DNA from: a virus
Taxonomy: Duplodnaviria > Heunggongvirae > Uroviricota > Caudoviricetes
Virus record (IMG/VR): IMGVR_UViG_3300001765_000263
Span: 1 to 64,000 of that record
Strand: one strand, 5' to 3'
Length of the DNA: 64,000 nt
Part shown: piece after piece, positions 30,443 to 62,446 of the stretch
Numbering within the stretch: position 1 is the first letter of the stretch
Layout of the letters: the number at the start of each line of letters is the position of its first letter
The notes under the pieces: model-generated
What the model was told of the DNA's origin: nothing
Seen by the model: only the letters and a program-made list of their open reading frames with translations
Databases searched by the model: none
Made by a program: the position numbers and the translations under genes

Positions 30443-30455
30443 AAAGGAAAAATAC

Positions 30456-36839: not shown

Positions 36840-36846
36840 GGTAACT

Positions 36847-40583: not shown

Positions 40584-40598
40584 AACAAAGGAATATAA

Positions 40599-46148: not shown

Positions 46149-46156
46149 TATAAATA
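46149..46156 (+). promoter_or_regulatory. T4-type late-promoter-like box, TATAAATA
   Basis: Exact TATAAATA 29 nt upstream of the ATG at 46185, in a 39-bp intergenic gap. Confidence 0.35.
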
Positions 46157-46184: not shown

Positions 46185-47888
46185 ATGACAACACCAATAG
46201 TAAATAAAAGCAGTACATTAGAAGAGTGGAGACAGATCACTAATCAAATATCAAATGGGATTGGTGATCTATCATCCATATACACCACAGATATTCCAAA
46301 CAATACAGGTGTTGAATATACAAATACCTCAGACACATATTCATATGTAAAACCACCCTTTCATGTAAATTTAATTCAGAATACGTTAAACAATCTGAAT
46401 GCTCGTAAGGTAAAAAGATCTGGCGACACAATCACAGGGCATCTAAACATCCTGCAAAATTTTAATGTTGTTGGTACTACTAAATTAGAAGGACCGTTAC
46501 AGGTAGTTCCTAGTGGAAGTGGCGCAATAGAATTAACTACTACAACTGGCAATATTGATATATCATCAACTGGTACAGGTGATATATCCATCAGTACAAC
46601 TGCTGCTGGTGGGGTTCTCTCATTATCATCTTTTGCTGCTGGCACAATCAACAATCTATCAATTGGTGTTACCACTCCATTAGCGGGTAGATTCACCACA
46701 TTAACCGTAGATACTAGTGCTGACATTACCCCTTCTGGAACAATAGTAATTAATCCAGGTACTGCTTTAGGGTCAGCAATCGATAACATGGAGATTGGGA
46801 CTACTACACCAGCAGCAGGGGCATTTACTGCATTAACAGTAACTCCTGTGACAGGATTTGCTGTAGAGATTGCACCATTCGATGCTGGTACAATTGACAA
46901 CATGGAGATTGGGACTACCATTGCTGCAGCAGGAACATTCACTGATTTGACAGTTACCACTAACTATACAATATCACCGTCTGCAACTGGCACTTTAGAC
47001 AATGTAACAATTGGTGCAACCACTGCTGCCGCAGGAACATTCACAAGCGTCACATCAGACAGCATCACTGCACGTACTACAGATAGTAATTTGACAATAT
47101 CTAGCAATGGAACTGGACTGATTGTTTTAGACGACCATGTACAAATTTCTGCATTATGCAATTTTGATCATTCTTTATCTACTGGCACGTTCAAGACTAG
47201 TTCTGGTGCAGTATCAATTAATGGATCAGTTACAGTTGCTTCACCAAAATCATTTATATGGGGTGCAAGTTCTTCAGTATCAACATCATCTGGAACATCA
47301 TCTGGAACAACTGCAACAGTTAACACATCAGGAAATCATAATCTAATTACTGGAGATTATGCAACAATTACGGGTGTAACTCCTGCTGGTTATAACGGTA
47401 CTTATCAAGTAACAAGAGTTGATAATGATACAATCACATATACTACTATAGGTTCTAGCATTGGGGCAATTTCAGTTCAGGGTACAGTTACAACTTCTGG
47501 AATTTTTGATATGAGCACTAGTTCTGGAACGTTCAAGACTAGCACTGGCACAGCAACCCTTAACGGATTCACATCATGTGCAGCATCATTTGGTCGTGGC
47601 ACACCTGTCACAAAAACTGCAGATTTCTCCGTAGGTACTGGTGAAAATTGGTTAATCAATAACAAATCTGGTTCAACATGTATAGTAACATTGCCAACAG
47701 CAAGTTCATTTACTGGTAGAGAAATAACCATTAAAACAATTCAAGCACAGACTGTTGTGTCAAATGCCAATAACGTAATTCCTATAATTGGTGGTTCTGC
47801 TGTTTCTGCTATTGTGGCAGCAACTTCAGGAAAGTGGGCAACTCTTGTATCTAATGGAACCAATTGGGAAATTATGGCACAAGGATAA
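46185..47888 (+). CDS. tail-fibre-like protein with four tandem repeats of about 37 aa
   Basis: RSGDTITGHLNI is a fibre-type motif. Repeats I(N/D)N(L/M)(S/E)IG(V/T)TTP(L/A)AG(R/A)FT(T/A)LTV occur four times. Thr/Ser/Gly-rich beta-rich composition. Confidence 0.55.
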   Translation: MTTPIVNKSSTLEEWRQITNQISNGIGDLSSIYTTDIPNNTGVEYTNTSDTYSYVKPPFHVNLIQNTLNNLNARKVKRSGDTITGHLNILQNFNVVGTTKLEGPLQVVPSGSGAIELTTTTGNIDISSTGTGDISISTTAAGGVLSLSSFAAGTINNLSIGVTTPLAGRFTTLTVDTSADITPSGTIVINPGTALGSAIDNMEIGTTTPAAGAFTALTVTPVTGFAVEIAPFDAGTIDNMEIGTTIAAAGTFTDLTVTTNYTISPSATGTLDNVTIGATTAAAGTFTSVTSDSITARTTDSNLTISSNGTGLIVLDDHVQISALCNFDHSLSTGTFKTSSGAVSINGSVTVASPKSFIWGASSSVSTSSGTSSGTTATVNTSGNHNLITGDYATITGVTPAGYNGTYQVTRVDNDTITYTTIGSSIGAISVQGTVTTSGIFDMSTSSGTFKTSTGTATLNGFTSCAASFGRGTPVTKTADFSVGTGENWLINNKSGSTCIVTLPTASSFTGREITIKTIQAQTVVSNANNVIPIIGGSAVSAIVAATSGKWATLVSNGTNWEIMAQG

Positions 47889-47894
47889 TTTGTC

Positions 47895-50800
47895 GTGACT
47901 TGGAAAGTTAATGGTGTTGATATTGATGATGTCTTCTTAACTGAAGATGAAATCTCTACGATGAAATTTAATTATGTTAATGGGACATTTGTAACTAATG
48001 TAGATTATAGCCAGCCAGTAGTAATAGGCACATCGAATACTTTTAAATCTGCTAAATCTGACAAAACCTCTACATCATGTATAGCAGATGGAAATACATT
48101 AAATATAGTTTCATCAAATTATAACGACACTATATTTTCCAACGTCAATATAACACCAAATAATATATTTTTTTATAGTAGAGCAAAAAAAAGTTCTTTT
48201 TATTCATATTATAGACGTTCCCATGTATATTCTTTAGGTTTAAATCAGTATGGACAATTGGGGCATGGCGACACTATATCTAGATCATCTCCAACACAGG
48301 TTGGGGCATCAAGTGATTGGAATCAAATTGTTGGTGATATAACAACATATGGTATTAAAGAAAACGGCACGTTGTGGTCATGGGGAAAAAATACCTATGG
48401 ACAATTAGGTCATGGTGATAATATTCATAGATCATCACCAACACAAGTCGGCACGTTGAGTGATTGGAATTATGTTAATTTACAGTTAGAATCTTCATTT
48501 TTTATTAAAAATGGCACACTATGGGCATGCGGGTATAACACCTATGGACAATTAGGTCATAGTGACAATATTCATAAGTCAATTCCAACACAGGTTGGTG
48601 GTCATATTTATTGGGAAAAAGTTTTCTGTGGAGAAAATAGTTCAATCGGAAAATTAAAAGATGGCAGTATATGGTCTTGGGGCAATAATAAATATGGGAA
48701 ATTGGGGTTAGGTAATAAGATTCATAGATCATCACCTGTTCAAGTTGGGAATGAAAAAAATTGGAATGTTATTAGTTGCAATTATAATAATACAATGGCA
48801 ACTAAAAACAATGGAACATTGTGGGCATGGGGAGATAATACCCAAGGACAGTTTGGGCAAGGTGACACAATTCATAGATCATCACCAACACAAGTTGGGA
48901 CATCAAGTGATTGGAGTACTGTATCGTGTGGAAATGCACATTTTGCAGCAATTAAAAATAATGGCACATTATGGGGTTGTGGCGACAATAGATCAAACCA
49001 ACTTGGTATTGCTAATACCGAAAGATATTCATCACCAATACAAATTGGTTCATTGAGTAATTGGAAAGCATTAAACTGTGGATATAATCTATCATTATAT
49101 ACAGATAACGATACTACTTATTTTAGTGGAAATAATCAAAACATAATCAGTGTTACTGGAACACTTAAAGATGTAAATTATAATTACTCTAGTGATAAGA
49201 TTAATGGAAAAATACACTCTAATGGTATTATAACACCTAGTGGCAAATTATATTGTTTTGGTTATGGTGGTGGTATTGGAAATATGTACGATACCACGTC
49301 TTCTAGTCCATATATAAAAGAGTATGGTCAGGGAAATTTTGATTCATTTCACGACAATAAAAGATATTTAACTGCAAAAGATAATAATGGTGGACTGTGG
49401 GTTTCCCAATTTTATCAAGTTCAGGATTATGTTGTTGGACCTAGAACATTTCAAGACGTTAATATAAATGACTCTATAATTACCAGTGTTAATAGTGAAG
49501 CTGACCAGGTTTTTTCTTATGTGAAATCTGATGGCACATTGTGGACTGCAGGGACAAATGGATATGGTGAATTAGGAATAGGTCAATATATACTACATAG
49601 ATCTTCCCCAACACAAGTTGGATCATTAAGTGATTGGAGTTATACCAGTACAGGAAGAAATACATTATTTGCTATTAAAACTAATGGCACATTATGGTCA
49701 TGTGGATATAATTATAATGGGCAATTGGGGGTATTTGAAACAAGCAACAGATCGTCCCCATGTCAGGTAGGATCATTAAGCAATTGGAAAACGTGTAAAT
49801 CTTCTCAGAATTCTGTGTGGCTAACGACAAATAATAATGAACTATTTGTTTTTGGTAGCAATCAAGATGGATTACTTGGAATAGGAAAAACAAATGATTA
49901 TAGTGTAGTTTCTTCACCAGTACAAGTTGGATCTTCAATATCCACGTATAATAGTGGAGGAATTTTGGCATCTTATATTAAATCAACAGACTCGACAGTA
50001 TGGGCATGGGGAGATACATCGAAATTAATTCCAGGCACATCTACTGGTCAATTATCACCGATATTGATTGGATCTTATTCTAAGATAATGCATAGTAGTT
50101 CAACAACAGATACATGGTTAATTAAATCTGATGGCACATTGTGGGCATGTGGTGGTAATACATCTGGTGTGTCTGGGTTAGGTGATACTATAACTAGGTC
50201 GTCACCTACACAAGTAGGAACATTGAGTGATTGGGGTAGCAGCACTTTTCCTAGATCCATGAATTATTGTATTTTATGTATAAAATCAAACGGTACATTA
50301 TGGGCATGGGGAGATAATTATAATGGGGCATTGGGACTTGGTGACACTATATCTAGATCATCGCCAACACAAGTTGGATCATTAAGTGATTGGAGTAAAG
50401 TTGCCTCACAAGAGAATGCTACATTATTGGTAAAAACAAATGGCACATTATGGGCATGCGGGTATAACCAATATGGGGTATTGGGATTAGGAAACACTAT
50501 TAATAGGTCGTCCCCAGTTCAAGTTGGGGCATTAAGTGATTGGAGTAAGGTGTTTGTTGATTATCATACCTTATCTTTTGCTATTAAGACCAACGGTACA
50601 TTATGGGCATGTGGATATAATTATAATGGGCAATTGGGGTTAGGTAACAAGATTCATAGATCATCACCTGTTCAAGTAGGTTCATTAAGTGATTGGAAAG
50701 ACGCAATAGGTAATTATTCAGCATCAGCATTTATAAAGACGGATGGTACATTATGGGGTTGTGGTTATGGTGGACAAGGATTAATAGGTAACGGCAGTAC

Positions 50801-53369
50801 AATACACAGATCATCACCAGTACAAGTTGGATCATTAAGTAATTGGAATAACATTTATGGTCAAACTGCAGGAAGTATATACTTTATGGCAACAAAATCA
50901 GATAACACTTTATGGTTAACAGGTGGTGTTGGGTCTTCAGCAACGTGTACATTGGCACGTTTTGCAGGAAGTATATTTTTGTATTCTCCTGTTCAAGTTG
51001 GGGCATTAAGTGATTGGGATAAAGTCTCTGGTGGCTTTCACACAATGCTTGCTATTAAAACTAATGGCACATTATGGTCATGTGGATATAATAATTATGG
51101 ACAGTTAGGCTTAGACGACGAGATTCATAGATCATCACCAGTACAGGTTGGGACGTCAAGTGATTGGAATTTAGCAAACGCGGGAACATACAGTTCAGCA
51201 GCAATCAAAACCGATGGAACATTGTGGACATGTGGAAGAAACATAGAAGGAGAACTTGGGATTGGATTAGTTCCAAACGTTACGGTTATGTCGTCACCAG
51301 TTCAAGTAGGTACGTCAAGCGATTGGGGAAGTTTTGGTATTAATGGACTGTCAGATAATGGGGGGTTGAGTGCAATAAAATCGAATGGCACTTTATGGGT
51401 AATGGGGTGGAATGTATATGGACAATTGGGTTTAGGCGACATTATTGATAGATCATCACCAGTTCAAGTCGGTACATTGAGTGATTGGAGTAAAATAGCT
51501 ACTACTACTTATAACTTTGCAGCAATTAAAACAACAGGCACATTATGGGCATGCGGGTACAATCCTAAAGGGCAACTAGGGACTAGTAACAAAATACACA
51601 GATCATCACCAGTGCAGGTTGGATCATTAAGTGATTGGAGTACGCTATCTATACATGGTGAATCGTCGTTTTTTATTAAGACTACTGGCACATTGTGGGC
51701 ATGCGGGTATAACCCATATGGGGTATTGGGACATGGAAATACTACTCATAGATCATCACCAGTCCAAGTCGGTACATTGAGTACTTGGACAAGTGTTATA
51801 AACACTACTGGAAGTTCAGTATATGCTATTGGTGGAAATAAACTATATTGTTGGGGGTCAAACAGTGGCGAACTTTGTCTTCCAGATAATATTGATAGAT
51901 CATCACCTGTTCAAGTGGGGTCATTAAGTGATTGGAGTAAATTAGTTGGGCATGGGGCAATCAAAACGGATGGTACATTATGGGGTTGGAGAGATAATAC
52001 TTATGGACAATTGATGACAGGCGACTATGAGAATAAATCATCTCCTGTTCAAATAGGATCATTAAGCGATTGGAGTAAAGCAGTAATTAGGAATGACAAT
52101 ATTATTGGGGTTAAGACTAATGGCACATTGTGGACATGTGGACATAACTTATATGGGCAATTAGGACTTGGTGACACCATTCATAGATCATCTCCTGTAC
52201 AAATTGGATCATTGAGTACTTGGGAAAATATAGAGTCTGGTTGGGGTGCTTATAAAACTGTGGTGGCAAGTAAGACAGATAATACAATATGGACATTTGG
52301 AACTATGCCTGTATTTATGATAATATATGGAAATAAAAGAGACACATTTACCAAAGTTGGGACATTAAGTAATTGGACTGACGCAAAAGTAACTAATGGT
52401 CATTTTTATGGGATAAATGCTGGTAGGTTATTTGTATGTGGGTCAAATTACTATAGTCAATTAGGAACATATTATATCGGTAATATTTCGTCACCAGTAC
52501 AAATTGGATCATTAAGTAATTGGAGTGCATTAGATATTTCTCAAAATGCTGACATTGCAATTGCTAAAAACACAGCAAATAGTTTATATATTAAAACACC
52601 ATTAAATTCAGTAACATTAAATGGTATGCAAAGACCATTTATTAAACATTATGATATAGGAACTACAATCGATAGTATAGTTGGAACTGTTGACATGGTT
52701 GGTTATATTAGTGGAGGCAAACTTTTTACGTATGGCGAAAACTTGCAGGGGTCATTAGGAAATGGCAATACAAATCGTAGGTCATCACCTGTTCAAGTTG
52801 GATCATTAAGTGATTGGAGCAAACTCGACGGGAATAATACTTGCTTACTTGCTATTAAAACAGATGGCACATTATGGGGATGGGGAGGAAATGTCCATGG
52901 AATGCTTGGTATTGGTGTTACAAGTTGGAGGTCGTCACCAACTCAAGTTGGATCATTGAGCGATTGGAGTAAAATTTCTTGTGGTTATTATGGAACTCAT
53001 GCTATTAAAACAGATGGCACATTATGGGGATGGGGAAATAATGGATTTGGTAAATTGGGTTTAGGCGACACCACTTATAGATCATCGCCAGTGCAGGTTG
53101 GGGCATTAAGTGATTGGAGTAAAATTTCTTTTGGTTACAATTGTACATCTGCAATCAAAACAAATGGAACACTATGGATCTCTGGTATTCTACCTATGTC
53201 GGACGAACTAATTTATGTATCATCTCCAACACAAATTGGAACAATGTCAAATTGGGAAGATGTTTCTTGTAATATTAATTTAGTGGCAAGCAACACAGAC
53301 GGTGAGATTTTTGTTGCTGGTCAAAATTCTGGAGTTTTTAGTTTGAGTGGACCATATGGATATTACTAA
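47895..53369 (+). CDS. giant RCC1-like beta-propeller repeat protein (1824 aa; about 30 blades by eye)
   Basis: GTG start with AAGGA 9 nt upstream and no in-frame ATG nearby. Continuous blades with the consensus GTLWxWGxNxYGQLGLGDTIHRSSPxQVGxLSDWSKV. Confidence 0.65.
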   Translation: MTWKVNGVDIDDVFLTEDEISTMKFNYVNGTFVTNVDYSQPVVIGTSNTFKSAKSDKTSTSCIADGNTLNIVSSNYNDTIFSNVNITPNNIFFYSRAKKSSFYSYYRRSHVYSLGLNQYGQLGHGDTISRSSPTQVGASSDWNQIVGDITTYGIKENGTLWSWGKNTYGQLGHGDNIHRSSPTQVGTLSDWNYVNLQLESSFFIKNGTLWACGYNTYGQLGHSDNIHKSIPTQVGGHIYWEKVFCGENSSIGKLKDGSIWSWGNNKYGKLGLGNKIHRSSPVQVGNEKNWNVISCNYNNTMATKNNGTLWAWGDNTQGQFGQGDTIHRSSPTQVGTSSDWSTVSCGNAHFAAIKNNGTLWGCGDNRSNQLGIANTERYSSPIQIGSLSNWKALNCGYNLSLYTDNDTTYFSGNNQNIISVTGTLKDVNYNYSSDKINGKIHSNGIITPSGKLYCFGYGGGIGNMYDTTSSSPYIKEYGQGNFDSFHDNKRYLTAKDNNGGLWVSQFYQVQDYVVGPRTFQDVNINDSIITSVNSEADQVFSYVKSDGTLWTAGTNGYGELGIGQYILHRSSPTQVGSLSDWSYTSTGRNTLFAIKTNGTLWSCGYNYNGQLGVFETSNRSSPCQVGSLSNWKTCKSSQNSVWLTTNNNELFVFGSNQDGLLGIGKTNDYSVVSSPVQVGSSISTYNSGGILASYIKSTDSTVWAWGDTSKLIPGTSTGQLSPILIGSYSKIMHSSSTTDTWLIKSDGTLWACGGNTSGVSGLGDTITRSSPTQVGTLSDWGSSTFPRSMNYCILCIKSNGTLWAWGDNYNGALGLGDTISRSSPTQVGSLSDWSKVASQENATLLVKTNGTLWACGYNQYGVLGLGNTINRSSPVQVGALSDWSKVFVDYHTLSFAIKTNGTLWACGYNYNGQLGLGNKIHRSSPVQVGSLSDWKDAIGNYSASAFIKTDGTLWGCGYGGQGLIGNGSTIHRSSPVQVGSLSNWNNIYGQTAGSIYFMATKSDNTLWLTGGVGSSATCTLARFAGSIFLYSPVQVGALSDWDKVSGGFHTMLAIKTNGTLWSCGYNNYGQLGLDDEIHRSSPVQVGTSSDWNLANAGTYSSAAIKTDGTLWTCGRNIEGELGIGLVPNVTVMSSPVQVGTSSDWGSFGINGLSDNGGLSAIKSNGTLWVMGWNVYGQLGLGDIIDRSSPVQVGTLSDWSKIATTTYNFAAIKTTGTLWACGYNPKGQLGTSNKIHRSSPVQVGSLSDWSTLSIHGESSFFIKTTGTLWACGYNPYGVLGHGNTTHRSSPVQVGTLSTWTSVINTTGSSVYAIGGNKLYCWGSNSGELCLPDNIDRSSPVQVGSLSDWSKLVGHGAIKTDGTLWGWRDNTYGQLMTGDYENKSSPVQIGSLSDWSKAVIRNDNIIGVKTNGTLWTCGHNLYGQLGLGDTIHRSSPVQIGSLSTWENIESGWGAYKTVVASKTDNTIWTFGTMPVFMIIYGNKRDTFTKVGTLSNWTDAKVTNGHFYGINAGRLFVCGSNYYSQLGTYYIGNISSPVQIGSLSNWSALDISQNADIAIAKNTANSLYIKTPLNSVTLNGMQRPFIKHYDIGTTIDSIVGTVDMVGYISGGKLFTYGENLQGSLGNGNTNRRSSPVQVGSLSDWSKLDGNNTCLLAIKTDGTLWGWGGNVHGMLGIGVTSWRSSPTQVGSLSDWSKISCGYYGTHAIKTDGTLWGWGNNGFGKLGLGDTTYRSSPVQVGALSDWSKISFGYNCTSAIKTNGTLWISGILPMSDELIYVSSPTQIGTMSNWEDVSCNINLVASNTDGEIFVAGQNSGVFSLSGPYGYY

Positions 53370-55167
53370 AATTATTATACATAACAGTCAAATTTATGCA
53401 ATTGATTCGATAGGAAAAAACTTATGGGTTTTTAATGCCAATAACATACGATATCAATGGGTATTATTAGACGATGATAATTGGCAAGACATAACAAATG
53501 GAGATTCTCATTTTATTGGACTTAAACAAAATGGCACACTATGGGGATTTGGCGAAAATAATTATGGTCAATTAGGATTAGGACACACTAATAAGATTGA
53601 AAACTTAACAATGCTGTCATCTGCACCAATAACAACAAAATGGAGTAGGGTATCATGTGGAGGAAATTCAACATGTTTAATAGATACTCAAGGGAATGGA
53701 TATGTATGTGGTGAAAACAAGTATGGACAATTTGGAACTGATAATTTTGTAAATCTTTCTACACCAACACAAATTGGTTCTTATAAAATGCAATATGCTT
53801 CTATAAGTAATAGAAATTTAATTTTTATTGATGACAACAACACATTATATGGGTCTGGAAATTATTGGGGGTTAGGTGCTTCTCCAGCAAGTGCTATTAC
53901 ATCAATAAGTTCTCCAGTTCAAATGCAGTCATGTATGGGAATTTCTCAAATTTCCAATGGTGTAAATGGCAATATGTACTATAACATGAATGCAATTGTT
54001 GATCATAGAATTTTATCATGGGGTACTTATCCGCAATTTTTTAATACTGAATATAGTTATAATGAAACAATTGATTATCAAAATGGTTCAGATTGGGATT
54101 ATGTTTCTTCTGTGGGGAATGGAGCATTAGCAGTAAAAACGAATGGTACATTATGGGGGTGTGGGTTTAATGATTGGGGGCAATTGGGAACAGGAGATGC
54201 AACTACAAGAAACTTAATGACTCAAATTGGATTATTAAGCGATTGGACACAAATTTCTGGTGAGTATAAAAATGCTGGTGCTGTAAAATCTAATGGTACA
54301 TTATGGGTATGGGGAAATAATGCTAACGGACAATTAGGACTTGGTGATATTAGAAATAGATCATCTCCAACTCAAGTCGGTACATCGAGTGATTGGTCTT
54401 CATTAACATTTGGTGTTAGAACAACAGCATATATAAAAAATGATAACACATTATGGATGTGTGGATATAATACCACTGGAGAATTGGGGTTAAGTGATAT
54501 TATCTATAGATCATCTCCTGTACAAGTAGGTGGGTTAAGTGATTGGAGTAAGATTAGGTGTGGATATTTTCATTCTGTTTCTATAAAAACTGACAACACA
54601 TTATGGTCATGGGGGTATTGTTATTATGGACAATTGGGAGTTAGTAACAATGCTAATAGATCGTCACCTGTTCAAGTTGGAGCATTGAGTGATTGGAGTA
54701 AGGTTGCTTGTGGTTCTTATCACACTATTGCAATTAAAACAAATAATACATTATGGTCATGGGGTCAAAATACCTATGGCCAATCAGGTCTTGGTAATGT
54801 TGTTCATAGATCATCTCCAACTCAAGTTGGCACATTGAGTGATTGGAGTGATATTGCTGGCGGCGACAGATGTTCTTTTTTTCTTAAAAATACTGGTGAT
54901 TTATGGGCATCAGGAACAAATACAGCAGGAGTTCTTTCAAATACAGTTTCTACTAACACATTTATAGAACTCAAAAAGAATGTTAAGCATGCTGAAACTG
55001 CCAATGGAAATACAATGCACTATACATATGACGATGAGTTGTTTTTTTGTGGGAATAATGTATATACTGTTGTTGGTTCAAAATCTTTAGTTCCAGTATC
55101 AAGAGGAATTTTAAGGAATTTGGAATTTGAATTAACTCCAACCCTAGCTGTACAGAAACGATTATGA
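53356..55167 (+). CDS. RCC1-like repeat protein
   Basis: ATG at 53356 (the track's GTG at 53347 is also possible). Overlaps the end of the preceding gene. Blades throughout. Confidence 0.6.
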   Translation: MDITKIIIHNSQIYAIDSIGKNLWVFNANNIRYQWVLLDDDNWQDITNGDSHFIGLKQNGTLWGFGENNYGQLGLGHTNKIENLTMLSSAPITTKWSRVSCGGNSTCLIDTQGNGYVCGENKYGQFGTDNFVNLSTPTQIGSYKMQYASISNRNLIFIDDNNTLYGSGNYWGLGASPASAITSISSPVQMQSCMGISQISNGVNGNMYYNMNAIVDHRILSWGTYPQFFNTEYSYNETIDYQNGSDWDYVSSVGNGALAVKTNGTLWGCGFNDWGQLGTGDATTRNLMTQIGLLSDWTQISGEYKNAGAVKSNGTLWVWGNNANGQLGLGDIRNRSSPTQVGTSSDWSSLTFGVRTTAYIKNDNTLWMCGYNTTGELGLSDIIYRSSPVQVGGLSDWSKIRCGYFHSVSIKTDNTLWSWGYCYYGQLGVSNNANRSSPVQVGALSDWSKVACGSYHTIAIKTNNTLWSWGQNTYGQSGLGNVVHRSSPTQVGTLSDWSDIAGGDRCSFFLKNTGDLWASGTNTAGVLSNTVSTNTFIELKKNVKHAETANGNTMHYTYDDELFFCGNNVYTVVGSKSLVPVSRGILRNLEFELTPTLAVQKRL

Positions 55168-56546
55168 CATATAAAGACAAATATAAAAAAATAACAAAAA
55201 ATTTAGCTCCATATAATTATCAAGCAAATGATTATGCATTTTTGAATAGTGTCGGAAGAAAAAATGTTTTGTTTGGTAGAAATCTTAATACCATGAACGT
55301 TTTTCATCCTAACAGGTCTGGTTCTAACAGTAAAACTTTTGTTAGTTCTATTTTAGAAATAACAGACATTGATGACATGGATATAATAGAAGTTACTAAT
55401 TCTGCAGTATATTTTTCTTATAATGGGGATACTTACATATCCTCATTAACTAGCGATTTAGTATATACATCTTTTTTTACAACTAAAGAAGAAAATTTAA
55501 TAAAACATCACTTTCCTGTAAAGTTGGTTGCAATTGGTGTTTACGATGGGATATTGTTAGATGTAAATGATAGATTATTTTATAATACATCTCCCTCAAC
55601 ATTTAATAGATTGATACAACATAAAAGCAGTCTCAACACGTTTTCTATACATGAAGAGATTACCTATGTCACAGCAAATACAGTTGTAAATAACCTTGGA
55701 TTTATAAAATCTGGAACATTATGGACATGCGGATATAATCTCTACGGACAACTAGGGTTGGGGGATATTGTTGGAAGATCATCTTTTGTACAAGTTGGTA
55801 CTTTAAGTGATTGGAAAACTGTCAACATTGAATCCCATCATTCAATGGGGACAAAGACTAATGGTACATTGTGGACATGGGGATATAACACCAATGGAGA
55901 ATTGGGATTAGGCGACAAAATTCATAGATCATCACCAGTTCAAGTTGGAGCATTGAGTGATTGGAGTAATGTGTCTAGCGGTGGTAATTTTAAAGCAGGA
56001 ATAAAAACTACTGGTACATTGTGGGCATGGGGAAGAAATGATTATGGACAACTAGGATTAGGTAATCTTATTAGTAGATCATCTCCAACTCAAGTTGGAA
56101 CATTGAGTGATTGGAGTACATGTGCGATTTCTGACGCAAGGCTTTTATCTGTTAAAACCAACGGTACATTATGGGCATGCGGGTATAATGTATATGGGTG
56201 TTTAGGATTAGGCGACACTATATCTAGATCGTCACCAGTTCAAGTTGGATCATTAAGTGATTGGAGTAAGGTTGATTGTGCAGACGGAAGTTTTACTGCA
56301 CAAAGAACGAATGGCACATTATGGTCTTGTGGAAAGAACGATGTTGCTCAATTAGGTCATGGTGATACTATTCATAGATCATCTCCAACTCAAGTAGGCA
56401 CATTGAGTGATTGGAGTATATTTACTATGGGGAAGACCTGTTTAGCTGCGGTAAAAACAGATGGTACTTTATATGTATCACGGAATTTTAAATGTTTAGA
56501 AGTAGACGAATATCTTTTACCTTTTAAAAGAAAAATGGATTATTAA
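55164..56546 (+). CDS. RCC1-like repeat protein (460 aa)
   Basis: ATG overlaps the upstream TGA (ATGA). The first about 180 aa are unique, followed by blades. Confidence 0.6.
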   Translation: MTYKDKYKKITKNLAPYNYQANDYAFLNSVGRKNVLFGRNLNTMNVFHPNRSGSNSKTFVSSILEITDIDDMDIIEVTNSAVYFSYNGDTYISSLTSDLVYTSFFTTKEENLIKHHFPVKLVAIGVYDGILLDVNDRLFYNTSPSTFNRLIQHKSSLNTFSIHEEITYVTANTVVNNLGFIKSGTLWTCGYNLYGQLGLGDIVGRSSFVQVGTLSDWKTVNIESHHSMGTKTNGTLWTWGYNTNGELGLGDKIHRSSPVQVGALSDWSNVSSGGNFKAGIKTTGTLWAWGRNDYGQLGLGNLISRSSPTQVGTLSDWSTCAISDARLLSVKTNGTLWACGYNVYGCLGLGDTISRSSPVQVGSLSDWSKVDCADGSFTAQRTNGTLWSCGKNDVAQLGHGDTIHRSSPTQVGTLSDWSIFTMGKTCLAAVKTDGTLYVSRNFKCLEVDEYLLPFKRKMDY

Positions 56547-56547
56547 A

Positions 56548-59500
56548 ATGATAATAGAAGACATTGCAACTAATATTGGTTCAGTAACCCAAACAATATT
56601 AAATGGTAAACTATTTACATTAGGTAATACAACATATGCAGCATATGGGGGCAAAAAATACACATACCTTAACTTACTAGATTCGAGTGCAAACTTTACT
56701 TCTTTACATGCTCATAGTGATATAATCTTTGCATTGACCAGTAATAATTGGTTATGGGGATTTGGGAATAATGCATATGGACAATTGGGACTAGGCGACA
56801 CCACTTATAGATCATCGCCAGTGCAGGTTGGGGCATTAAGTGATTGGAGTAAGGTTTCCCCTGCTAAATTTAGTACAATAGCGATTAAAACAAATGGTAC
56901 ATTGTGGAGTTGGGGCAATAACACCAATGGACAATTGGGACAAAGCAATAATATTTCTAGATCATCACCAACTCAAGTTGGGGCATTAAGTGATTGGAGT
57001 AAGGTTGCTTGTGGATATTATACAACTCAGGCTATTAAAACAGATGGCACATTATGGGGATGGGGAGGAAATAATTATGGACATCTAGGACTAGGCGACA
57101 CTATTATTAGATCATCGCCAGTGCAGGTTGGGGCATTAAGTGATTGGAGTAAGGTTGCTTGTGGTTCTTATCATACTATTGCAATTAAAACAGATGGTAC
57201 TTTGTGGTCTTGTGGATATAATAATACTGGTCAATTGGGACATGGAAATAGAATTCATAGATCATCACCTATTCAAGTAGGATCGTTAAGCGATTGGAAT
57301 ATTATTGGATGCAGTACATCCAGTTCATATTTTTATAATAATAGTGATGTGTTATATGCGTGTGGGACAACTAATAATCCTGGTCAAACAAATGTACAAA
57401 GATCATTACCTACACAATTGGGGTCATTTAAATCAGCATTGAGACCAATGTTAGATATTAAAAGCAATACCACACAGATTGTTCCAATGTTCATTTTAAA
57501 CAATATTGGAGAAAATAAAAAAACATTAACCTCTTGGAATGGATACCTCGGTGACGGAAATTCAAGCACTAACACACAAATTTATATAGAAGAGAATATG
57601 AGTTGGAGAGATGCAACTCGATTCAGTTCATCAGATATTGTTACAATAGATTCATCTGGAAGATTATGGAAAACTAATCTTTGGACACAAACAGACGTTT
57701 CTTCTCCTGTACAACTTGGTTCATTATCAAATTGGGAAAAATTGGGAAAAACCAATCAAGAATTAATTTCAACCAAAGATGTGTCTTACGTTAGTAACAA
57801 TTTAGGAGAATTATATTATTTTGGAAAAAACATTGATTATGCAGATAAATCAACTGCTTCTTATTTTACTGAACCATTTCATATAGATCCAGATGGTAAT
57901 GAAAGAACATCATATAGATTCATTATAAAAAACGATAATACATTATGGGGGTGTGGATATAACGACTCCAACTATACTCTTTCTATTATAGATGCTGCAC
58001 ATAGATCTTCCCCAACACAAGTTGGCTCATTAAGTGATTGGATGAAAATAGATGAATCATTCTCTTCAGTTTTCTCTGTTAAAACTGATGGAACATTATG
58101 GACGTGGGGTGATAATTTTTATGGTCAATTAGGATTGGGTGATACAATCCATAGATCATCACCAGTACAAGTCGGCAATTCACTGAATTGGATTAAAATA
58201 AGTGGTGGATTTGCAATCAACACTGATAGAACTTTATGGAGTCTAGGAGGGGAAAATAGTCAAGGGCAATTGGGACTTGGTGACACTATATCTAGATCAT
58301 CGCCAACACAAGTTGGATCATTGAATGACTGGCATCATATTAGTAGTAATAGTCTTCAGACGTTTGCAGTGTCCATAAAAGGAACATTATGGACGTGGGG
58401 GTACAATTTCATTGGTGTTCTTGGTGTTGGTGATACAATCCATAGATCATCTCCAACTCAAGTTGGATCATTGAGCGATTGGTTACACTGTAAAATATAT
58501 TCTGATGATAGTTCAATAAGCACACTTATATTAAAATATAATGGCACATTATGGTTATGGGGTGGTAATGGATATGGGAACTTAGGATTGGGTGATACAA
58601 TCCATAGATCATCTCCAACTCAAGTTGGATCATTGAGCGATTGGTGTACAATTTCTTCTTCGTCTGCCGTTAAAACCAATGGCACATTATGGACATGGGG
58701 TTTTAATACATATGGTGGATTGGGTTTAGGTGATACAATCCACAGATCATCTCCAACTCAAGTTGGATCATTGAGCGATTGGAAAGAAATTTTAAGTTTT
58801 GATAAAATATGCAAACAAAATGGCACATTGTGGGTATGCGGATATAATGGTACTGGTCAATTAGGATTGGGTGATACAATCCATAGATCATCACCAACAC
58901 AAGTTGGAACATTAAATAATTGGAATTTCCCTAAAGTAAAAGAAATACAAATTTTTGGTGATGACAATATAACGATCAGGGAGGATAACTCCGTGTTTTT
59001 TACAGGGTCAGATTTCCATACAACATTTTCTGAGGAAGTTCCACTTACAACACAAAAAAGATTTTATGAAATTGACGACAATGTAATTACGTGCCAAGGG
59101 ATTACGTACACAAAAAGTGATAATTCGATGTATATATGCCCGTCTTACGGTTTTAATTTTGTTGGATATTTTTTTCCATACTACGACAGAAATTATAAAA
59201 TTTCTAATACATTAAAATGGAAAAAAATGATTCATAGGAGTGGTAACTGTTCTGTGGCAATTGATAGTGACGATAAAATATATCAAAGTGGAGTACAAAG
59301 TTCTGGACTAGCAACTCCAACTGGATCATACACAAAAATAGGAAATGATACATGGAGTGATGTTGGTATTACAAATGATTATAGTGTCATATCTGCTGTT
59401 AAAACGAACGGAACGTTGTGGTCATGGGGACTTGGGATTTATGGGTGTTTAGGATTAGGCGACACTATATCTAGATCGTCACCAGTTCAAGTTGGAACAT

Positions 59501-60363
59501 TAAGTGATTGGAGTAAGGTTGTTGGTTCTAGAAGAAGTTTTGCATTTTTAAAAACGAATGGCACATTATGGACATGTGGGTATAACTTAACCGGTTGTTT
59601 GGGATTGGGGTTAGGTGACACTGCATCTAGATCATCTCCAACTCAAGTTGGAACATTGAGTGATTGGAGTAAAATTAGTACAAAAGGGGAGTATGATTTT
59701 GCTTTTTACAATGCATCAAATACTTATGTTACTGGTGAGTTAAAAACATATTTTGGTGTGTCTGGTATCGGTACGCTTTCACCTGTCGGGTTATATTCTG
59801 ATATAGATGGAAATTTAGCGTTAAAACCAAATGGAGAATTATATTATCTTAATGATGTTTCTCCAATAAGAATAGGATCAAGTTCTAATTGGGTTAAAAT
59901 ATCAGATGGTCTTGCAGTAAACAGTGATAAAAAAGTTTTTAGTTATACTACTTATTCAAAGAAAGCAAAGAATAAAAAATGGAATAAACAAGCAAAATCG
60001 ATTAGTGTTGGTGGATTAGACACACCGTTTTTATGTACAGTAACAACAGACAGCACATTGTGGAGTTGGGGGTATAATCAATATGGAACGTTAGGAGTTG
60101 GGGATCAAGTCCATAGATCATCTCCAACTCAAGTCGGCACATTGAGTGATTGGAGTAAAGTTGCTTGTGGCACTCAACATGCTGCTGCTCTCAAAACAGA
60201 TGGCACTTTATGGGCATGGGGATATAATAGTTATGGACAACTATCTAGTACTGGTCTTTCTTCTAACTCGACTGCTGCATCTCCTGCACAAATGGGAAGT
60301 TTGTCTATATGGCAAAATGTATGGTGTATGGATGCAGCAATTATAGGCGAGGTAATCAAATGA
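56548..60363 (+). CDS. giant RCC1-like repeat protein (1271 aa)
   Basis: ATG 2 nt after the previous stop. About 20 blades. Confidence 0.65.
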   Translation: MIIEDIATNIGSVTQTILNGKLFTLGNTTYAAYGGKKYTYLNLLDSSANFTSLHAHSDIIFALTSNNWLWGFGNNAYGQLGLGDTTYRSSPVQVGALSDWSKVSPAKFSTIAIKTNGTLWSWGNNTNGQLGQSNNISRSSPTQVGALSDWSKVACGYYTTQAIKTDGTLWGWGGNNYGHLGLGDTIIRSSPVQVGALSDWSKVACGSYHTIAIKTDGTLWSCGYNNTGQLGHGNRIHRSSPIQVGSLSDWNIIGCSTSSSYFYNNSDVLYACGTTNNPGQTNVQRSLPTQLGSFKSALRPMLDIKSNTTQIVPMFILNNIGENKKTLTSWNGYLGDGNSSTNTQIYIEENMSWRDATRFSSSDIVTIDSSGRLWKTNLWTQTDVSSPVQLGSLSNWEKLGKTNQELISTKDVSYVSNNLGELYYFGKNIDYADKSTASYFTEPFHIDPDGNERTSYRFIIKNDNTLWGCGYNDSNYTLSIIDAAHRSSPTQVGSLSDWMKIDESFSSVFSVKTDGTLWTWGDNFYGQLGLGDTIHRSSPVQVGNSLNWIKISGGFAINTDRTLWSLGGENSQGQLGLGDTISRSSPTQVGSLNDWHHISSNSLQTFAVSIKGTLWTWGYNFIGVLGVGDTIHRSSPTQVGSLSDWLHCKIYSDDSSISTLILKYNGTLWLWGGNGYGNLGLGDTIHRSSPTQVGSLSDWCTISSSSAVKTNGTLWTWGFNTYGGLGLGDTIHRSSPTQVGSLSDWKEILSFDKICKQNGTLWVCGYNGTGQLGLGDTIHRSSPTQVGTLNNWNFPKVKEIQIFGDDNITIREDNSVFFTGSDFHTTFSEEVPLTTQKRFYEIDDNVITCQGITYTKSDNSMYICPSYGFNFVGYFFPYYDRNYKISNTLKWKKMIHRSGNCSVAIDSDDKIYQSGVQSSGLATPTGSYTKIGNDTWSDVGITNDYSVISAVKTNGTLWSWGLGIYGCLGLGDTISRSSPVQVGTLSDWSKVVGSRRSFAFLKTNGTLWTCGYNLTGCLGLGLGDTASRSSPTQVGTLSDWSKISTKGEYDFAFYNASNTYVTGELKTYFGVSGIGTLSPVGLYSDIDGNLALKPNGELYYLNDVSPIRIGSSSNWVKISDGLAVNSDKKVFSYTTYSKKAKNKKWNKQAKSISVGGLDTPFLCTVTTDSTLWSWGYNQYGTLGVGDQVHRSSPTQVGTLSDWSKVACGTQHAAALKTDGTLWAWGYNSYGQLSSTGLSSNSTAASPAQMGSLSIWQNVWCMDAAIIGEVIK

Positions 60364-62438
60364 CATACAAAGGAATTAACTTCGTCAATAAGAGTATATT
60401 TGAGAAAGAAGGGTATTTAGTAGCATCGAGTAGATATGATTCTATTGAGTTACCAAGATTAGTTCCAGATATAATTGATCATTCTTATGGTCCTCTCAGT
60501 GAGATTTACATAAAAACGAATGGTACAATGTGGGCATGTGGATATAATGGACCGTGGGGAAAGTTAGGAATTGGTACAGCAGGGGATTATACAGAACGAT
60601 ATTCTTCTCCTATTCAAGTTGGGACATTAAGTACATGGGAAAAGATAACCGTTAGTTGGGGTGCTTCTTTTGCAATCAAAACCAACGGCACATTATGGTC
60701 ATGGGGGGATAATGAATATGGAAGTTTATGTCATGGTGACACAGTTCATAGATCATCACCAACACAGGTTGGATCGTTAAGTACGTGGTCTAGAGTGTGG
60801 AATGAATTTGGAAATTTTATTGCAACAAAAACGAATGGTACATTATGGGTGTGTGGAGATAATTCTGATGGGAAATTAGGTTTAGGAAACACTATTAATA
60901 GGTCGTCCCCAGTTCAAGTTGGGGCATTAAGTGACTGGAGTCAGATATCAGGTTCCGGTGGTAAAGTAGTTGCTATTAAAACAACTGGCACGTTATGGAC
61001 ATGGGGCAAGAATGATGGTTATAATAATTTAGGTCTTGGTGATACTATTAATAGATCATCCCCTACACAGGTTGGAACATTGAGCAACTGGAGTGCAATA
61101 GGGTTGAATGGAGATTTTACAATAATGTTAAAATCGACTGGCACATTATGGTTTTGTGGATATGCTTTTAATAATGTTTTTTATAGTGAAAATAAATCAT
61201 CCCCTGTTCAGGTTGGTACATCAAGTGATTGGAGTCAAATATATGTGACTAATATTAATTCTATTCTTGGTATTAAAACGAATGGGACATTATGGAGAAT
61301 TGGAGAAGACCCCATTTTTTATGGGGAAGTTACAGATAATAATGGTGTTCAGACTGGAACATTAAGTGATTGGGGAAGTTTTAAAGGAAGTCATAGTAAT
61401 ACGTTGATTAAAAAGACAAACAATACTTTTTGGAATTATGATTTTGATGGAGTATTTCACCCAATAAATGATAAAGAGGGTAATATCACTGCTTTATTGT
61501 CAAGAAAATATAACACAAGCAATATTAATATTTCTGATATGTATCGTCTTCAAGAAAGTTCTTTTTTAATATTTGAGGATACAAGAATATTGGTTGGAGG
61601 AGTAAATTCTTACGGACAATTAGGATTAGGTCATACCAGTTTTGTTACCACTCCAGTACAGTTAGGGGAAATAAACGAATGGAAATTTGGGTATTTTTCT
61701 TCACAGTTTTTGATGTCTGTCTTTTTAAAAATGAACGGCACTTTATGGACTTGTGGTTATAACAATTTTGGACAATTGGGACTTGGTGACAACCTTGCTA
61801 GATCATCACCAGTACAGGTTGGGACATTAAGTGACTGGAGTAAAATTGGTGAAACATATGTAACTAGAACAGACAATTCTGTATGGGTATGGGGTTGGAA
61901 TATTGACGGAAAATTGGGACTTGGTGACACTATTGATAGATTATCACCAGTACAGTTAGGAATAAAAAACGAATGGGATAAAATAGTATCTAACGGACGT
62001 ATGTCAGTGTTACTCAAAACAAATGGCAATTTATGGACATGTGGTTATAACAATTTTGGACAATTGGGACTTGGTGACACCATTCATAGATCATCACCTG
62101 TACAAGTTGGAACATTAAGTGACTGGAGTAAAATTAGTGGAGCTGGAGTGAGCATATTTGCATTGAAAACTAACAATACATTATGGGCATGTGGATATAA
62201 TTATAATGGGCATTTAGGATTGGGAGACACTATCCATAGATCATCTCCTACACAAGTTGGAACATTAAGTGATTGGTATGATACATACGGCAACTATGCT
62301 GTAAAAACCGATGGTACGTTGTGGTGTATTAACAATTCTTTAGTGTCAAGTCCAATACAAGTTGGGAAGTCTTTTAATTGGGTCAAACCAATCAGTACTG
62401 GAACTATATGGGGGCAATATATCGGATTAGCGAAGTGA
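60360..62438 (+). CDS. RCC1-like repeat protein (about 692 aa)
   Basis: ATG at 60360 overlaps the upstream TGA (ATGA), with GAGGT 8 nt upstream. The track's 60309 start would overlap the previous gene by 54 nt. Confidence 0.6.
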   Translation: MTYKGINFVNKSIFEKEGYLVASSRYDSIELPRLVPDIIDHSYGPLSEIYIKTNGTMWACGYNGPWGKLGIGTAGDYTERYSSPIQVGTLSTWEKITVSWGASFAIKTNGTLWSWGDNEYGSLCHGDTVHRSSPTQVGSLSTWSRVWNEFGNFIATKTNGTLWVCGDNSDGKLGLGNTINRSSPVQVGALSDWSQISGSGGKVVAIKTTGTLWTWGKNDGYNNLGLGDTINRSSPTQVGTLSNWSAIGLNGDFTIMLKSTGTLWFCGYAFNNVFYSENKSSPVQVGTSSDWSQIYVTNINSILGIKTNGTLWRIGEDPIFYGEVTDNNGVQTGTLSDWGSFKGSHSNTLIKKTNNTFWNYDFDGVFHPINDKEGNITALLSRKYNTSNINISDMYRLQESSFLIFEDTRILVGGVNSYGQLGLGHTSFVTTPVQLGEINEWKFGYFSSQFLMSVFLKMNGTLWTCGYNNFGQLGLGDNLARSSPVQVGTLSDWSKIGETYVTRTDNSVWVWGWNIDGKLGLGDTIDRLSPVQLGIKNEWDKIVSNGRMSVLLKTNGNLWTCGYNNFGQLGLGDTIHRSSPVQVGTLSDWSKISGAGVSIFALKTNNTLWACGYNYNGHLGLGDTIHRSSPTQVGTLSDWYDTYGNYAVKTDGTLWCINNSLVSSPIQVGKSFNWVKPISTGTIWGQYIGLAK

Positions 62439-62446
62439 TATAAATA
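62439..62446 (+). promoter_or_regulatory. T4-type late-promoter-like box, TATAAATA
   Basis: Exact TATAAATA immediately after the stop of the last RCC1 gene, 39 nt upstream of the ATG at 62485. Confidence 0.3.

What the first reader, a model, noticed from the sequence alone, without database searches (positions are those of the whole stretch)
47895..62438. 14.5 kb of consecutive paralogous RCC1-like beta-propeller repeat genes in a phage structural module
Five adjacent plus-strand genes of 1824, about 600, 460, 1271 and about 690 aa consist almost entirely of 50-55-aa RCC1/ATS1-type blades with the core GTLWxWGxNxYGQLGLGDTIHRSSP(T/V)QVGxLSDWSK. There are well over 80 blades by eye. The same blades occur in three more places: the gene between gp5 and the PAAR protein (16606-19233), the C-terminus of the 38607 gene, and the N-terminus of the 40599 gene. 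Together this is roughly 30% of the window. The genes are start/stop-coupled and sit between a tail-fibre-like gene and the baseplate genes, which fits a virion-surface role such as adhesins or decoration. RCC1 propellers are not a standard fibre fold in T4-like phages, and an expansion this size is uncommon.
Basis: partly seen in the sequence, partly recalled or inferred. Interest (0 to 1): 0.85.

Follow-up and report, generated by a model that had tools for sequence, protein, structure and literature searches.

The report
Giant RCC1 propeller array in phage
Five back-to-back genes in the tail-fibre region of an uncultured T4-like phage encode about a dozen RCC1-type beta-propellers, the largest example yet seen of a phage protein family that is already catalogued but whose function nobody has tested.

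Summary
Window 47895-62438 carries five intact, translationally coupled + strand genes (1824, 603, 460, 1271, 692 aa). They consist almost entirely of RCC1 blades (Pfam PF00415, E down to 1e-177). A blade HMM finds 74-76 blades here and 21 more elsewhere, together about 28% of the window. AlphaFold2 models the 692-aa member as two seven-bladed propellers joined by a flexible linker.

The setting is a late tail-fibre/baseplate module of a T4-like myovirus from a metagenome. The kind is not new. Tandem RCC1 paralogs are published for Rak2-like jumbo phages and were found in virions by mass spectrometry. PHROGs holds three phage RCC1 families. T4-like cyanophages S-SRM01 and BUCT-ZZ01 carry RCC1 genes in the same position.

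New points are the scale and the comparative picture. This array is the largest among about 130 loci examined (next largest 54 blades). The closest relative has no array at this locus, yet carries 48 or more blades elsewhere. A sulfotransferase gene accompanies RCC1 genes in 22 of 39 independent viral loci and in 0 of 22 controls. Blade cores are under purifying selection; variable positions evolve almost neutrally.

The most likely role is virion-surface host-binding modules, which is inferred, not shown. The RCC1 gene between gp5 and the PAAR gene is frame-broken at assembly junctions.

The parts
46149..46156 (+). TATAAATA, a T4-type late-promoter core, in the 39-nt gap before the fibre-like gene that heads the array's likely transcription unit
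   Evidence: Three of the 8 window matches fall in the 4% of sequence that is intergenic, each just upstream of a start codon (binomial P = 0.003). No further TATAAATA occurs until 62439, and terminator-like sites are not above chance.
46185..47888 (+). Fibre-like gene (567 aa) immediately upstream of the array
   Evidence: Internal 102-132-nt repeats encode the motif IGTTTPAAGxFT (families D13/D14). The C-terminal ~95 aa is shared at 43-73% identity with viral contigs of very different GC and with proteins of podovirus-sized genomes. No Pfam or PDB sequence match. The homolog in the closest relative abuts the sulfotransferase.
47895..53369 (+). RCC1 gene 1, 1824 aa, 30 blade hits (28 near full length), roughly 4-5 propellers, with a ~110-aa non-repeat N-terminus
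53356..55167 (+). RCC1 gene 2, 603 aa from the ATG at 53356 (JGI call) or 606 aa from the GTG at 53347; 9-10 blade hits plus degenerate blades
55164..56546 (+). RCC1 gene 3, 460 aa; five canonical blades (about residues 165-440 modelled confidently); the 163-aa N-terminus is unresolved
   Evidence: An ortholog covering the full length (42% identity, 482 aa) exists in L027.
56548..60363 (+). RCC1 gene 4, 1271 aa, 18-19 blade hits, about three propellers
60360..62438 (+). RCC1 gene 5, 692 aa from the ATG at 60360; two seven-bladed propellers (residues ~35-370 and ~400-690) joined by a disordered linker
   Evidence: AlphaFold2 pLDDT 83.5, pTM 0.72. Foldseek top hits are UVR8, HERC1/2 RLDs, RPGR and RCC1.
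62439..62446 (+). TATAAATA immediately after the stop codon of the last RCC1 gene and 39 nt before the sulfotransferase start
62485..63264 (+). Sulfotransferase (259 aa), a recurrent neighbour of phage RCC1 genes
   Evidence: Pfam Sulfotransfer_3, E 9e-18. Adjacent to RCC1 genes in S-SRM01, L039/L040, L046, L055 and L075. Present in 22 of 39 independent RCC1-retrieved loci against 0 of 22 independent controls.
16606..19233 (+). RCC1 coding region between gp5 and the PAAR gene; 14 blade hits spread over three reading-frame segments
   Evidence: The frame breaks coincide with two ~65-nt differences between assemblies and with the end of an independent contig. The closest relative has an intact ORF of at least 1998 aa with at least 34 blades here.
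38607..40583 (+). Middle piece of a second VrlC-like (phrog_358/DUF4815) structural protein, with RCC1 blades at 39654-40544
   Evidence: It is fused with the next gene into one 2355-aa ORF in the closest relative.
40599..44570 (+). C-terminal piece of that VrlC-like protein; weak blade remnants at 40680-40865
   Evidence: The junction with the previous gene has two stop codons, an AAGGA ribosome-binding site and an ATG.

Best explanation
The five genes encode late-expressed proteins that are chains of seven-bladed RCC1-like beta-propellers: one to about five propellers per protein, about a dozen in all, joined by flexible linkers and preceded by short N-terminal tails. They belong to the tail-fibre/baseplate-periphery module of a T4-like myovirus.

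I propose they are carried on the virion and act as host-surface binding modules (adhesins or accessory receptor-binding proteins). The conserved blade core keeps the fold. The variable positions form the binding surface.

The array arose by old duplication of blades and propellers within a locus that gains and loses RCC1 genes between related phages. The adjacent sulfotransferase, and probably the methyl- and glycosyltransferases beyond it, work with these proteins in some way.

Shown: gene integrity, family, fold, genomic context, copy-number variation, selection pattern, and the sulfotransferase linkage. Inferred: late transcription, presence in the virion, binding function, and any link to sulfation.
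For: Family and fold: Pfam RCC1 and RLD above cutoff in all five genes. AlphaFold2 gives a two-propeller model for the 692-aa member. The nearest solved folds and sequences are UVR8, HERC, RPGR and RCC1.

Structural context: upstream lie gp48/53/5/PAAR/25/6/7/8-like baseplate genes and VrlC-like virion proteins. A fibre-like gene sits immediately upstream. In the close relative the tail sheath gene follows the transferase island.

Physical link to a structural protein: RCC1 blades are embedded inside a VrlC-like structural protein in the window, and within a single 2355-aa ORF in the relative.

Same context in other lineages: S-SRM01; BUCT-ZZ01; L040, with six tail or fibre genes upstream; and two T4-sized contigs where the gene sits beside a collagen-repeat protein and a tail-fibre assembly chaperone.

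Fibre-tip precedent: PollyC's gp17-position protein combines a T7 tail-fibre N-terminal domain with RCC1 blades.

Virion evidence in other phages: RCC1 proteins were detected by mass spectrometry in W70 (phrog_4219, the family the window proteins hit at E 6.8e-176), phAPEC6 and GAP32.

Expression: translational coupling, plus late-promoter cores at 46149 and 62439.

Functional constraint: between orthologous arrays, dN/dS is 0.22 at core positions and 0.93 at variable positions.

Locus variability typical of host-range genes: 0, 54 and 74-76 blades at the homologous locus.
Against: There is no direct evidence that these particular proteins are in particles.

No shared N-terminal anchor domain was found, and the 460-aa protein's N-terminus could not be modelled.

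Propellers are monomeric protein-interaction modules, unlike classical trimeric fibres.

The closest relative lacks the array at this locus, so it is dispensable there.

The authors of the phAPEC6 paper proposed DNA condensation inside the head instead.

dN/dS near 1 at variable positions fits relaxed constraint as well as diversifying selection. Those positions were defined by variability among paralogs, which is partly circular.

TATAAATA is not enriched in the window as a whole.
Confidence: 0.55

Rival explanations
1. The proteins are in the virion but do not bind receptors. They might be decoration or 'hair' on the tail or head, structural spacers of the baseplate periphery, or internal head proteins that organise DNA, as proposed for Rak2-like jumbo phages.
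For: RCC1 proteins in phAPEC6, GAP32 and W70 virions have no assigned location. The phAPEC6 authors suggest a role in DNA ordering, and these phages have unexplained hairy fibres. One RCC1 gene lies between gp5 and the PAAR gene, which is not a fibre position.
Against: The array sits in the fibre module rather than the head module. RCC1 forms the distal part of a T7-like fibre in PollyC. Fast evolution of variable positions and copy-number turnover fit an external, host-facing role better than an internal one. The DNA-condensation idea rests only on the name of eukaryotic RCC1.
Confidence: 0.2
2. The proteins are not packaged. They act inside or on the infected cell late in infection. Possible roles are protein-binding inhibitors or scaffolds (as BLIP-II is for beta-lactamase), or partners of the neighbouring sulfo-, methyl- and glycosyltransferases in remodelling the host envelope or exopolysaccharide.
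For: RCC1-like domains are generic protein-interaction modules. The conserved adjacency to a sulfotransferase and a transferase island could reflect a shared enzymatic pathway rather than virion assembly. No virion anchor was identified.
Against: Members of the same PHROG are found in purified W70 particles. Blades are fused into VrlC-like structural proteins and into a T7-type fibre. About 4,850 aa of coupled late genes is a large investment for a non-structural accessory.
Confidence: 0.17
3. The array is not a real functional feature: either a mis-assembled or collapsed repeat, or decaying junk.
For: The related RCC1 gene after gp5 is frame-broken exactly at assembly junctions, so repeat-driven assembly errors do occur on this contig.
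Against: Five ORFs stay open over 14.5 kb. Two assemblies agree at 99.995% with no gaps. DNA repeats within the array are only 60-80% identical, too diverged to confuse an assembler. Orthologous arrays show purifying selection on core positions.
Confidence: 0.03

Closest known systems
Tandem RCC1/ATS1 ('DNA condensation protein') paralog arrays of Rak2-like jumbo phages: 121Q (13 copies), phAPEC6 (11), PBECO4 (6), GAP32 gp1 (PMC5259590, PMC7247149)
   Same: Multiple adjacent RCC1-repeat paralogs in one phage genome. Several were detected in virions by mass spectrometry. Function is unknown. The window proteins match the same PHROG families (phrog_4219 and related).
   Different: Those are roughly 380-aa single-propeller proteins in 350-kb jumbo phages and are not in a T4-type fibre module. 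Here there are chains of up to about five propellers per protein, in a T4-like phage, next to fibre genes and a sulfotransferase.
E. coli phage W70 (Vequintavirinae) proteins W70_237-239 (PMC11370258)
   Same: RCC1 proteins of phrog_4219, three in tandem, identified in purified particles by ESI-MS/MS.
   Different: About 40 kDa single propellers. Host and phage lineage are unrelated. Their location on the virion is unknown.
T4-like cyanophages S-SRM01 (gp335, gp337, gp344 plus sulfotransferase gp345) and BUCT-ZZ01 ('BNR repeat domain protein')
   Same: Same genomic position: after the baseplate wedge, fibre and VrlC-like genes. In S-SRM01 an RCC1 gene is followed directly by a sulfotransferase and glycosyltransferases.
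   Different: Only 14-21 blades (two or three propellers) against 95 here. The papers held in the library do not discuss these genes.
Uncultured relatives in IMG/VR (L039-L043 family: four genes of 1059/483/978/374 aa, 54 blades; L046: 49 blades)
   Same: Orthologous multi-propeller array immediately upstream of the same sulfotransferase (55-76% identity) and flanked by tail-fibre genes.
   Different: Fewer genes and blades. No adjacent baseplate genes within 10 kb.
Pseudomonas phage PollyC gp38 (Autographiviridae tail-fibre position)
   Same: RCC1 blades used as the distal part of a tail fibre.
   Different: A single fibre gene with a T7-type N-terminal adaptor. The Phage_T7_tail match (23.1 bits) is just below Pfam's cutoff (25.2). 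There is no array.
Eukaryotic RCC1-like domains (RCC1, UVR8, HERC1/2 RLDs, RPGR)
   Same: Seven-bladed propeller fold and repeat signature. These are the nearest solved structures.
   Different: About 15-20% structural-alignment identity. There is no reason to expect Ran-GEF or UV-B photoreceptor activity. The phage proteins are tandem propeller chains.

Membership tests
RCC1 repeat / RCC1-like domain superfamily (Pfam PF00415, PF25390) | Repeats of 50-55 aa that score above Pfam's gathering threshold | tested here: met
   All five proteins: PF00415 at 151-576 bits (cutoff 21.7) and PF25390 at 159-705 bits (cutoff 150).
RCC1 repeat / RCC1-like domain superfamily (Pfam PF00415, PF25390) | Seven-bladed beta-propeller fold | tested here: met
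   The AlphaFold2 model of the 692-aa member shows two propellers with four-stranded blades (pLDDT 83.5). Foldseek gives probability 1.00 to UVR8, HERC, RPGR and RCC1. Only this member was modelled in full.
Functional RCC1 (Ran guanine-nucleotide exchange factor, chromatin binding) | Ran-binding face with beta-wedge; nucleosome-binding loop and N-terminal tail | not tested
   No residue-level comparison was made, and bacteria have no Ran partner. The names 'regulator of chromosome condensation' and 'DNA condensation protein' are inherited annotation, not evidence.
Phage RCC1 families phrog_7220 / phrog_4219 / phrog_16766 | Significant match to the PHROG profiles | tested here: met
   E values from 1.8e-185 to 3.9e-26 across the five proteins.
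Virion-associated RCC1 paralog arrays (Rak2-like jumbo phages, W70) | Tandem paralogous RCC1 genes | tested here: met
   Five adjacent, coupled genes.
Virion-associated RCC1 paralog arrays (Rak2-like jumbo phages, W70) | Detected in purified particles | not testable with these tools
   Known only for W70, phAPEC6 and GAP32.
T4 long or short tail fibres (gp34-37, gp12) | Homology to fibre shaft or tip families; trimeric fibrous repeats | tested here: not met
   No Pfam fibre family matched. The only 'tail protein' PHROG hits (phrog_20500, phrog_11922) are weak and lie within blade regions.
Other beta-propeller families (WD40, Kelch, BNR/sialidase, YWTD) | Best profile match to that family | tested here: not met
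   Only RCC1-clan models matched. The 'BNR repeat' label on the BUCT-ZZ01 homolog is an annotation error by this criterion.
RCC1-sulfotransferase gene pair in phage fibre modules (proposed here) | A sulfotransferase homolog within or directly after the RCC1 genes | tested here: met
   Window 62485-63264 starts 47 nt after the last RCC1 gene. Found in 22 of 39 independent loci against 0 of 22 controls.

The most novel reading that the evidence does not exclude
Chains of RCC1 propellers are a distinct, non-trimeric 'beads-on-a-string' class of phage adhesin that works as a conserved module with a phage sulfotransferase. Either the enzyme modifies the propellers (for example at the invariant RSSP motif or on attached glycans), or the propellers recognise sulfated host exopolysaccharide. 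Gain and loss of propellers at three different structural loci would tune adsorption.
Probability: 0.2. Interest if true: 0.72.

Novelty: new member of a known kind. Interest (0 to 1): 0.47.

Why it matters
RCC1-repeat proteins are repeatedly annotated in phages as 'regulator of chromosome condensation' or 'DNA condensation protein', and PHROGs files them under nucleotide metabolism. No function has ever been shown.

This locus and its relatives give the clearest genomic argument so far that they belong to the adsorption apparatus:
- fusion into VrlC-like structural proteins;
- placement among fibre genes in several lineages;
- copy-number turnover between relatives;
- fast-evolving surface positions.

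They also reveal a sulfotransferase partner that I did not find described in the literature library. If the role is confirmed, a widespread class of host-recognition proteins in environmental T4-like phages would be re-annotated. It would also offer a modular propeller scaffold for studies of host range.

Tried and rejected
- **Near-identical phage genomes:** megablast of 42 kb of the window against 50,697 phage records found nothing.
- **Whole-propeller duplication:** blade identity shows no lag-7 periodicity. Blades are about equally diverged (mean 47%, maximum 79%), so there is no recent amplification.
- **Shared N-terminal anchor:** BLASTP among the non-blade segments found nothing. N-termini are short and heterogeneous.
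- **Structure of the 460-aa member's N-terminus:** unresolved (pLDDT below 50 for residues 1-163).
- **Programmed frameshifting in 16606-19233:** rejected. The breaks coincide with two ~65-nt differences between assemblies and with a contig end, and the sites are not canonical slippery sequences.
- **Stop-codon readthrough at 40581:** rejected. There are two stops, then AAGGA and an ATG.
- **Fibre-tip homology between gene 46185 and the gene upstream of the L040 array:** none.
- **Solved-structure relatives of gene 46185:** none.
- **Sigma-70 promoters and intrinsic terminators:** not above chance.
- **tRNAs:** none.
- **Host inference from cellular genomes:** only relatives at 40% identity or less, in unrelated MAGs.
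- **Literature:** no papers on RCC1 as a phage receptor-binding protein, or on RCC1 with sulfotransferase in phages. The S-SRM01 paper does not mention these genes.
- **Sample origin:** the contig prefix 'MIS' may mean Middle Island Sinkhole (Lake Huron mats). I could not verify this.


Full report
**1. The observation**

Window 47895-62438 contains five consecutive + strand ORFs. JGI's independent gene calls on the source contig give 1824, 603, 460, 1271 and 692 aa. All five score far above Pfam's thresholds for the RCC1 repeat (PF00415, E 2.8e-177 to 1.2e-44) and the RCC1-like domain (PF25390).

I built a blade HMM from the window and searched all six frames. It finds 95 hits, every one on the + strand and in a coding frame. 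Of these, 74-76 lie in the five genes, and 66 are near full length. Most of the remaining 'gaps' are recognisably degenerate blades, so the proteins are nearly all blades, about 76-88 in total, or roughly a dozen propellers.

The consensus is GTLWxcGyNxyGQLGlGDtihRSSPvQVGtLSDWskis...AIKTNGT. The genes are tightly coupled, with a 6-nt gap, a 14-nt overlap, ATGA, a 1-nt gap and ATGA. Together with blades at 16999-19134 and 39654-40865, RCC1 coding sequence covers 28% of the window. Two assemblies of the contig agree over the array at 99.995% with no gaps. The DNA repeats inside it are only 60-80% identical with a 150-nt period. The array is therefore real and not an assembly product.

**2.

- The 'gene' 16606-19233 is not a single ORF here. 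Its blades run in frame 0, then frame 1, then frame 0, breaking at about 17220 and 18913 inside a ~107-nt near-identical direct repeat.
- The JGI version of the same contig lacks two ~65-nt segments exactly at these points. An independent Logan contig begins exactly at 18913. The closest relative has an intact ORF of at least 1998 aa with at least 34 blades at this position. I conclude that the breaks are repeat-induced assembly errors, not programmed frameshifts.
- The 38607 and 40599 genes are genuinely separate: two stops, an AAGGA site and an ATG. They are one 2355-aa ORF in the relative.
- The array lies downstream of both the baseplate genes and the fibre-like gene, not between them.

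**3. Context**

The window is the structural region of a T4-like myovirus. It carries genes resembling gp3, gp2, gp48, gp53, gp5-lysozyme, PAAR, gp25, gp6, a 2372-aa gp7, and gp8. Next come two copies of a giant VrlC/VriC-like 'virion structural protein' (phrog_358, DUF4815). The second copy is split into three genes and has RCC1 blades inserted into it. After these come a radical-SAM/SPASM gene, a fibre-like gene with IGTTTPAAGxFT repeats and a widely shared C-terminal module, the array, and a sulfotransferase.

On the full contig, methyl- and glycosyltransferases follow. In the close relative the tail sheath gene comes after them.

No deposited phage is similar at the DNA level. The gp6-like protein is 35-36% identical to those of pelagimyophages, OM43 phages and cyanomyophages. 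The source is JGI metagenome 3300002026, contig MIS_10000120 (NCBI WGS JFJP01).

T4-type late-promoter cores (TATAAATA) sit in the short gaps before the fibre-like gene (46149) and before the sulfotransferase (62439). Three of the eight matches in the window are intergenic (P = 0.003). There is no excess of terminators. This suggests that the fibre-like gene and the array form one late transcript.

**4. Structure**

AlphaFold2 was run on the 692-aa member with a 73-sequence alignment. It gives a confident model (pLDDT 83.5, pTM 0.72) of two propellers (residues ~35-370 and ~400-690), a disordered 28-residue N-terminal tail and a disordered linker.

The nearest solved structures are UVR8, the HERC1/2 RLDs, RPGR and RCC1. 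No phage protein appears among the listed matches. In the viral predicted-structure library the best matches are multi-propeller 'RCC1' proteins of uncultured Caudovirales. Further down are a PollyC protein with a T7 tail-fibre N-terminal domain and a Littlefix 'tail fiber protein'.

For PollyC I confirmed RCC1 blades, with a Phage_T7_tail match just below Pfam's cutoff, in the gene occupying the gp17 position. The 460-aa member's propeller is modelled well, but its 163-aa N-terminus is not.

**5. Comparative genomics**

RCC1 genes are rare in cultured phages: 48 of 50,697 records match. They recur in environmental ones.

- S-SRM01, marine virus AG-345-E08 and several IMG/VR contigs each carry three single-propeller genes.
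- BUCT-ZZ01 has a gene of two-propeller size between a tail fibre gene and the VrlC-like gene.
- Two T4-sized contigs place a double propeller next to a collagen-repeat protein and a tail-fibre assembly chaperone.
- Contigs L039-L043 share a sulfotransferase 76% identical to the window's. They carry an orthologous four-gene, 54-blade array directly upstream of it, preceded by six tail or fibre genes.
- The closest relative (sulfotransferase 89% identical, gp5 57%) has no array at this locus. Its fibre-like gene abuts the sulfotransferase. It nevertheless holds at least 34 blades after gp5 and 14 inside its VrlC-like protein.

The lineage therefore keeps a high RCC1 load but moves it among three structural loci. 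The window's array is the largest among about 130 loci examined.

A sulfotransferase homolog occurs in 22 of 39 independent loci retrieved with RCC1 queries. In 15 of them it lies within 2 kb after the last blade. It occurs in 0 of 22 independent control loci.

**6. Evolution**

Blades average 47% identity. There is no lag-7 periodicity and no near-identical pairs. The expansion is therefore old, and the fold is maintained by selection.

Between the orthologous arrays of L039 and L040 (66-75% identity), dN/dS is 0.22 at conserved core positions and 0.93 at variable positions. This shows that the proteins are functional and that the variable positions evolve almost freely. That pattern fits a host-facing binding surface, but relaxed constraint is not excluded.

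**7. What is known**

Tandem RCC1/ATS1 paralogs are described in Rak2-like jumbo phages: 121Q has 13, phAPEC6 has 11 and PBECO4 has 6. Several were found in virions by mass spectrometry (GAP32 gp1; phAPEC6 gp003, gp005 and gp007). Phage W70 particles contain three RCC1 proteins of phrog_4219, a family the window proteins match at E 6.8e-176. PHROGs also has a 1734-position RCC1 profile, so multi-propeller phage proteins are already catalogued.

No function has been demonstrated. The only published suggestion I found, DNA condensation, rests on the family name. In the literature library I found nothing on RCC1 as a receptor-binding domain, or on its linkage with a sulfotransferase.

**8. Verdict**

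The finding is real and correctly identified. It is an extreme member of a known but functionally uncharacterised kind.

The best-supported reading (confidence about 0.55) is that these are late, virion-borne chains of propellers that bind the host surface, encoded in a fibre locus that turns over between relatives.

The rivals are:
- a virion component that does not bind receptors (0.2);
- a non-packaged late protein working with the transferase island (0.17);
- an artefact (0.03).

The conserved sulfotransferase partnership and the relocation of RCC1 load among three structural loci are the most useful new leads.

Noticed in passing
window 17113-17284 and 18806-18980: Both frame breaks in the RCC1 gene between gp5 and the PAAR gene lie just after a ~107-nt repeat that is 95-100% identical. 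They coincide with two ~65-nt segments that the JGI assembly of the same contig lacks. An independent Logan contig starts exactly at 18913. This is probably a collapsed or mis-joined repeat.
   Followed up: yes
L119 8722-14715 (IMGVR_UViG_3300001765_000038): In the closest relative, the gene after gp5 is an intact ORF of at least 1998 aa with at least 34 RCC1 blades. It runs off the end of the fetched locus. A giant propeller chain encoded between the central-spike gene and the PAAR tip gene is unexplained.
   Followed up: partly
window 36826-44570: A second copy of the giant VrlC-like protein (phrog_358/DUF4815; the full copy is at 30432-36839) is split into three genes with RCC1 blades inserted. 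At the 40583/40599 junction a blade appears to be divided between two polypeptides. The same region is one 2355-aa ORF in the relative.
   Followed up: partly
window 62485-63264 and loci L001-L117: A sulfotransferase gene accompanies phage RCC1 genes across contigs with GC from 0.33 to 0.59 (22 of 39 loci against 0 of 22 controls). I found no description of this in the literature library.
   Followed up: partly
window 44766-46145: A radical SAM/SPASM-type maturase-like gene (best NCBIfam matches PapB, anaerobic sulfatase maturase and other peptide maturases, all below cutoff; phrog_1802) sits inside the fibre module. It is absent from the closest relative. It might modify a structural protein.
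   Followed up: partly
window 4437, 46149, 62439: TATAAATA (the T4 late-promoter core) occurs in three short intergenic gaps directly upstream of the gp32-like gene, the fibre-like gene and the sulfotransferase. Overall the motif is not enriched.
   Followed up: partly
window 47586-47888 (C-terminal ~95 aa of gene 46185): This C-terminal module is shared at 43-73% identity with viral contigs of GC 0.37-0.61 and with proteins of podovirus-sized phages, one of them annotated sialate O-acetylesterase. It looks like a horizontally mobile fibre or spike tip domain.
   Followed up: partly
window 5554-7743 (- strand): A 729-aa ORF between the gp32-like gene and the baseplate-hub and tail-tube genes has no Pfam, PHROG or NCBIfam match.
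   Followed up: no
window 28697-28873: Two 57-nt copies, 91% identical and 120 nt apart, lie near the C-terminus of the 2372-aa gp7-like protein.
   Followed up: no
public annotations (ON615601.1 147825-149927; NC_042104.1 32466-35069; PHROG categories): Homologs are mislabelled. The BUCT-ZZ01 RCC1 protein is called 'BNR repeat domain protein'. PollyC's RCC1-bearing fibre is called 'tail fiber assembly'. The PHROGs RCC1 families are filed under 'DNA, RNA and nucleotide metabolism'.
   Followed up: partly
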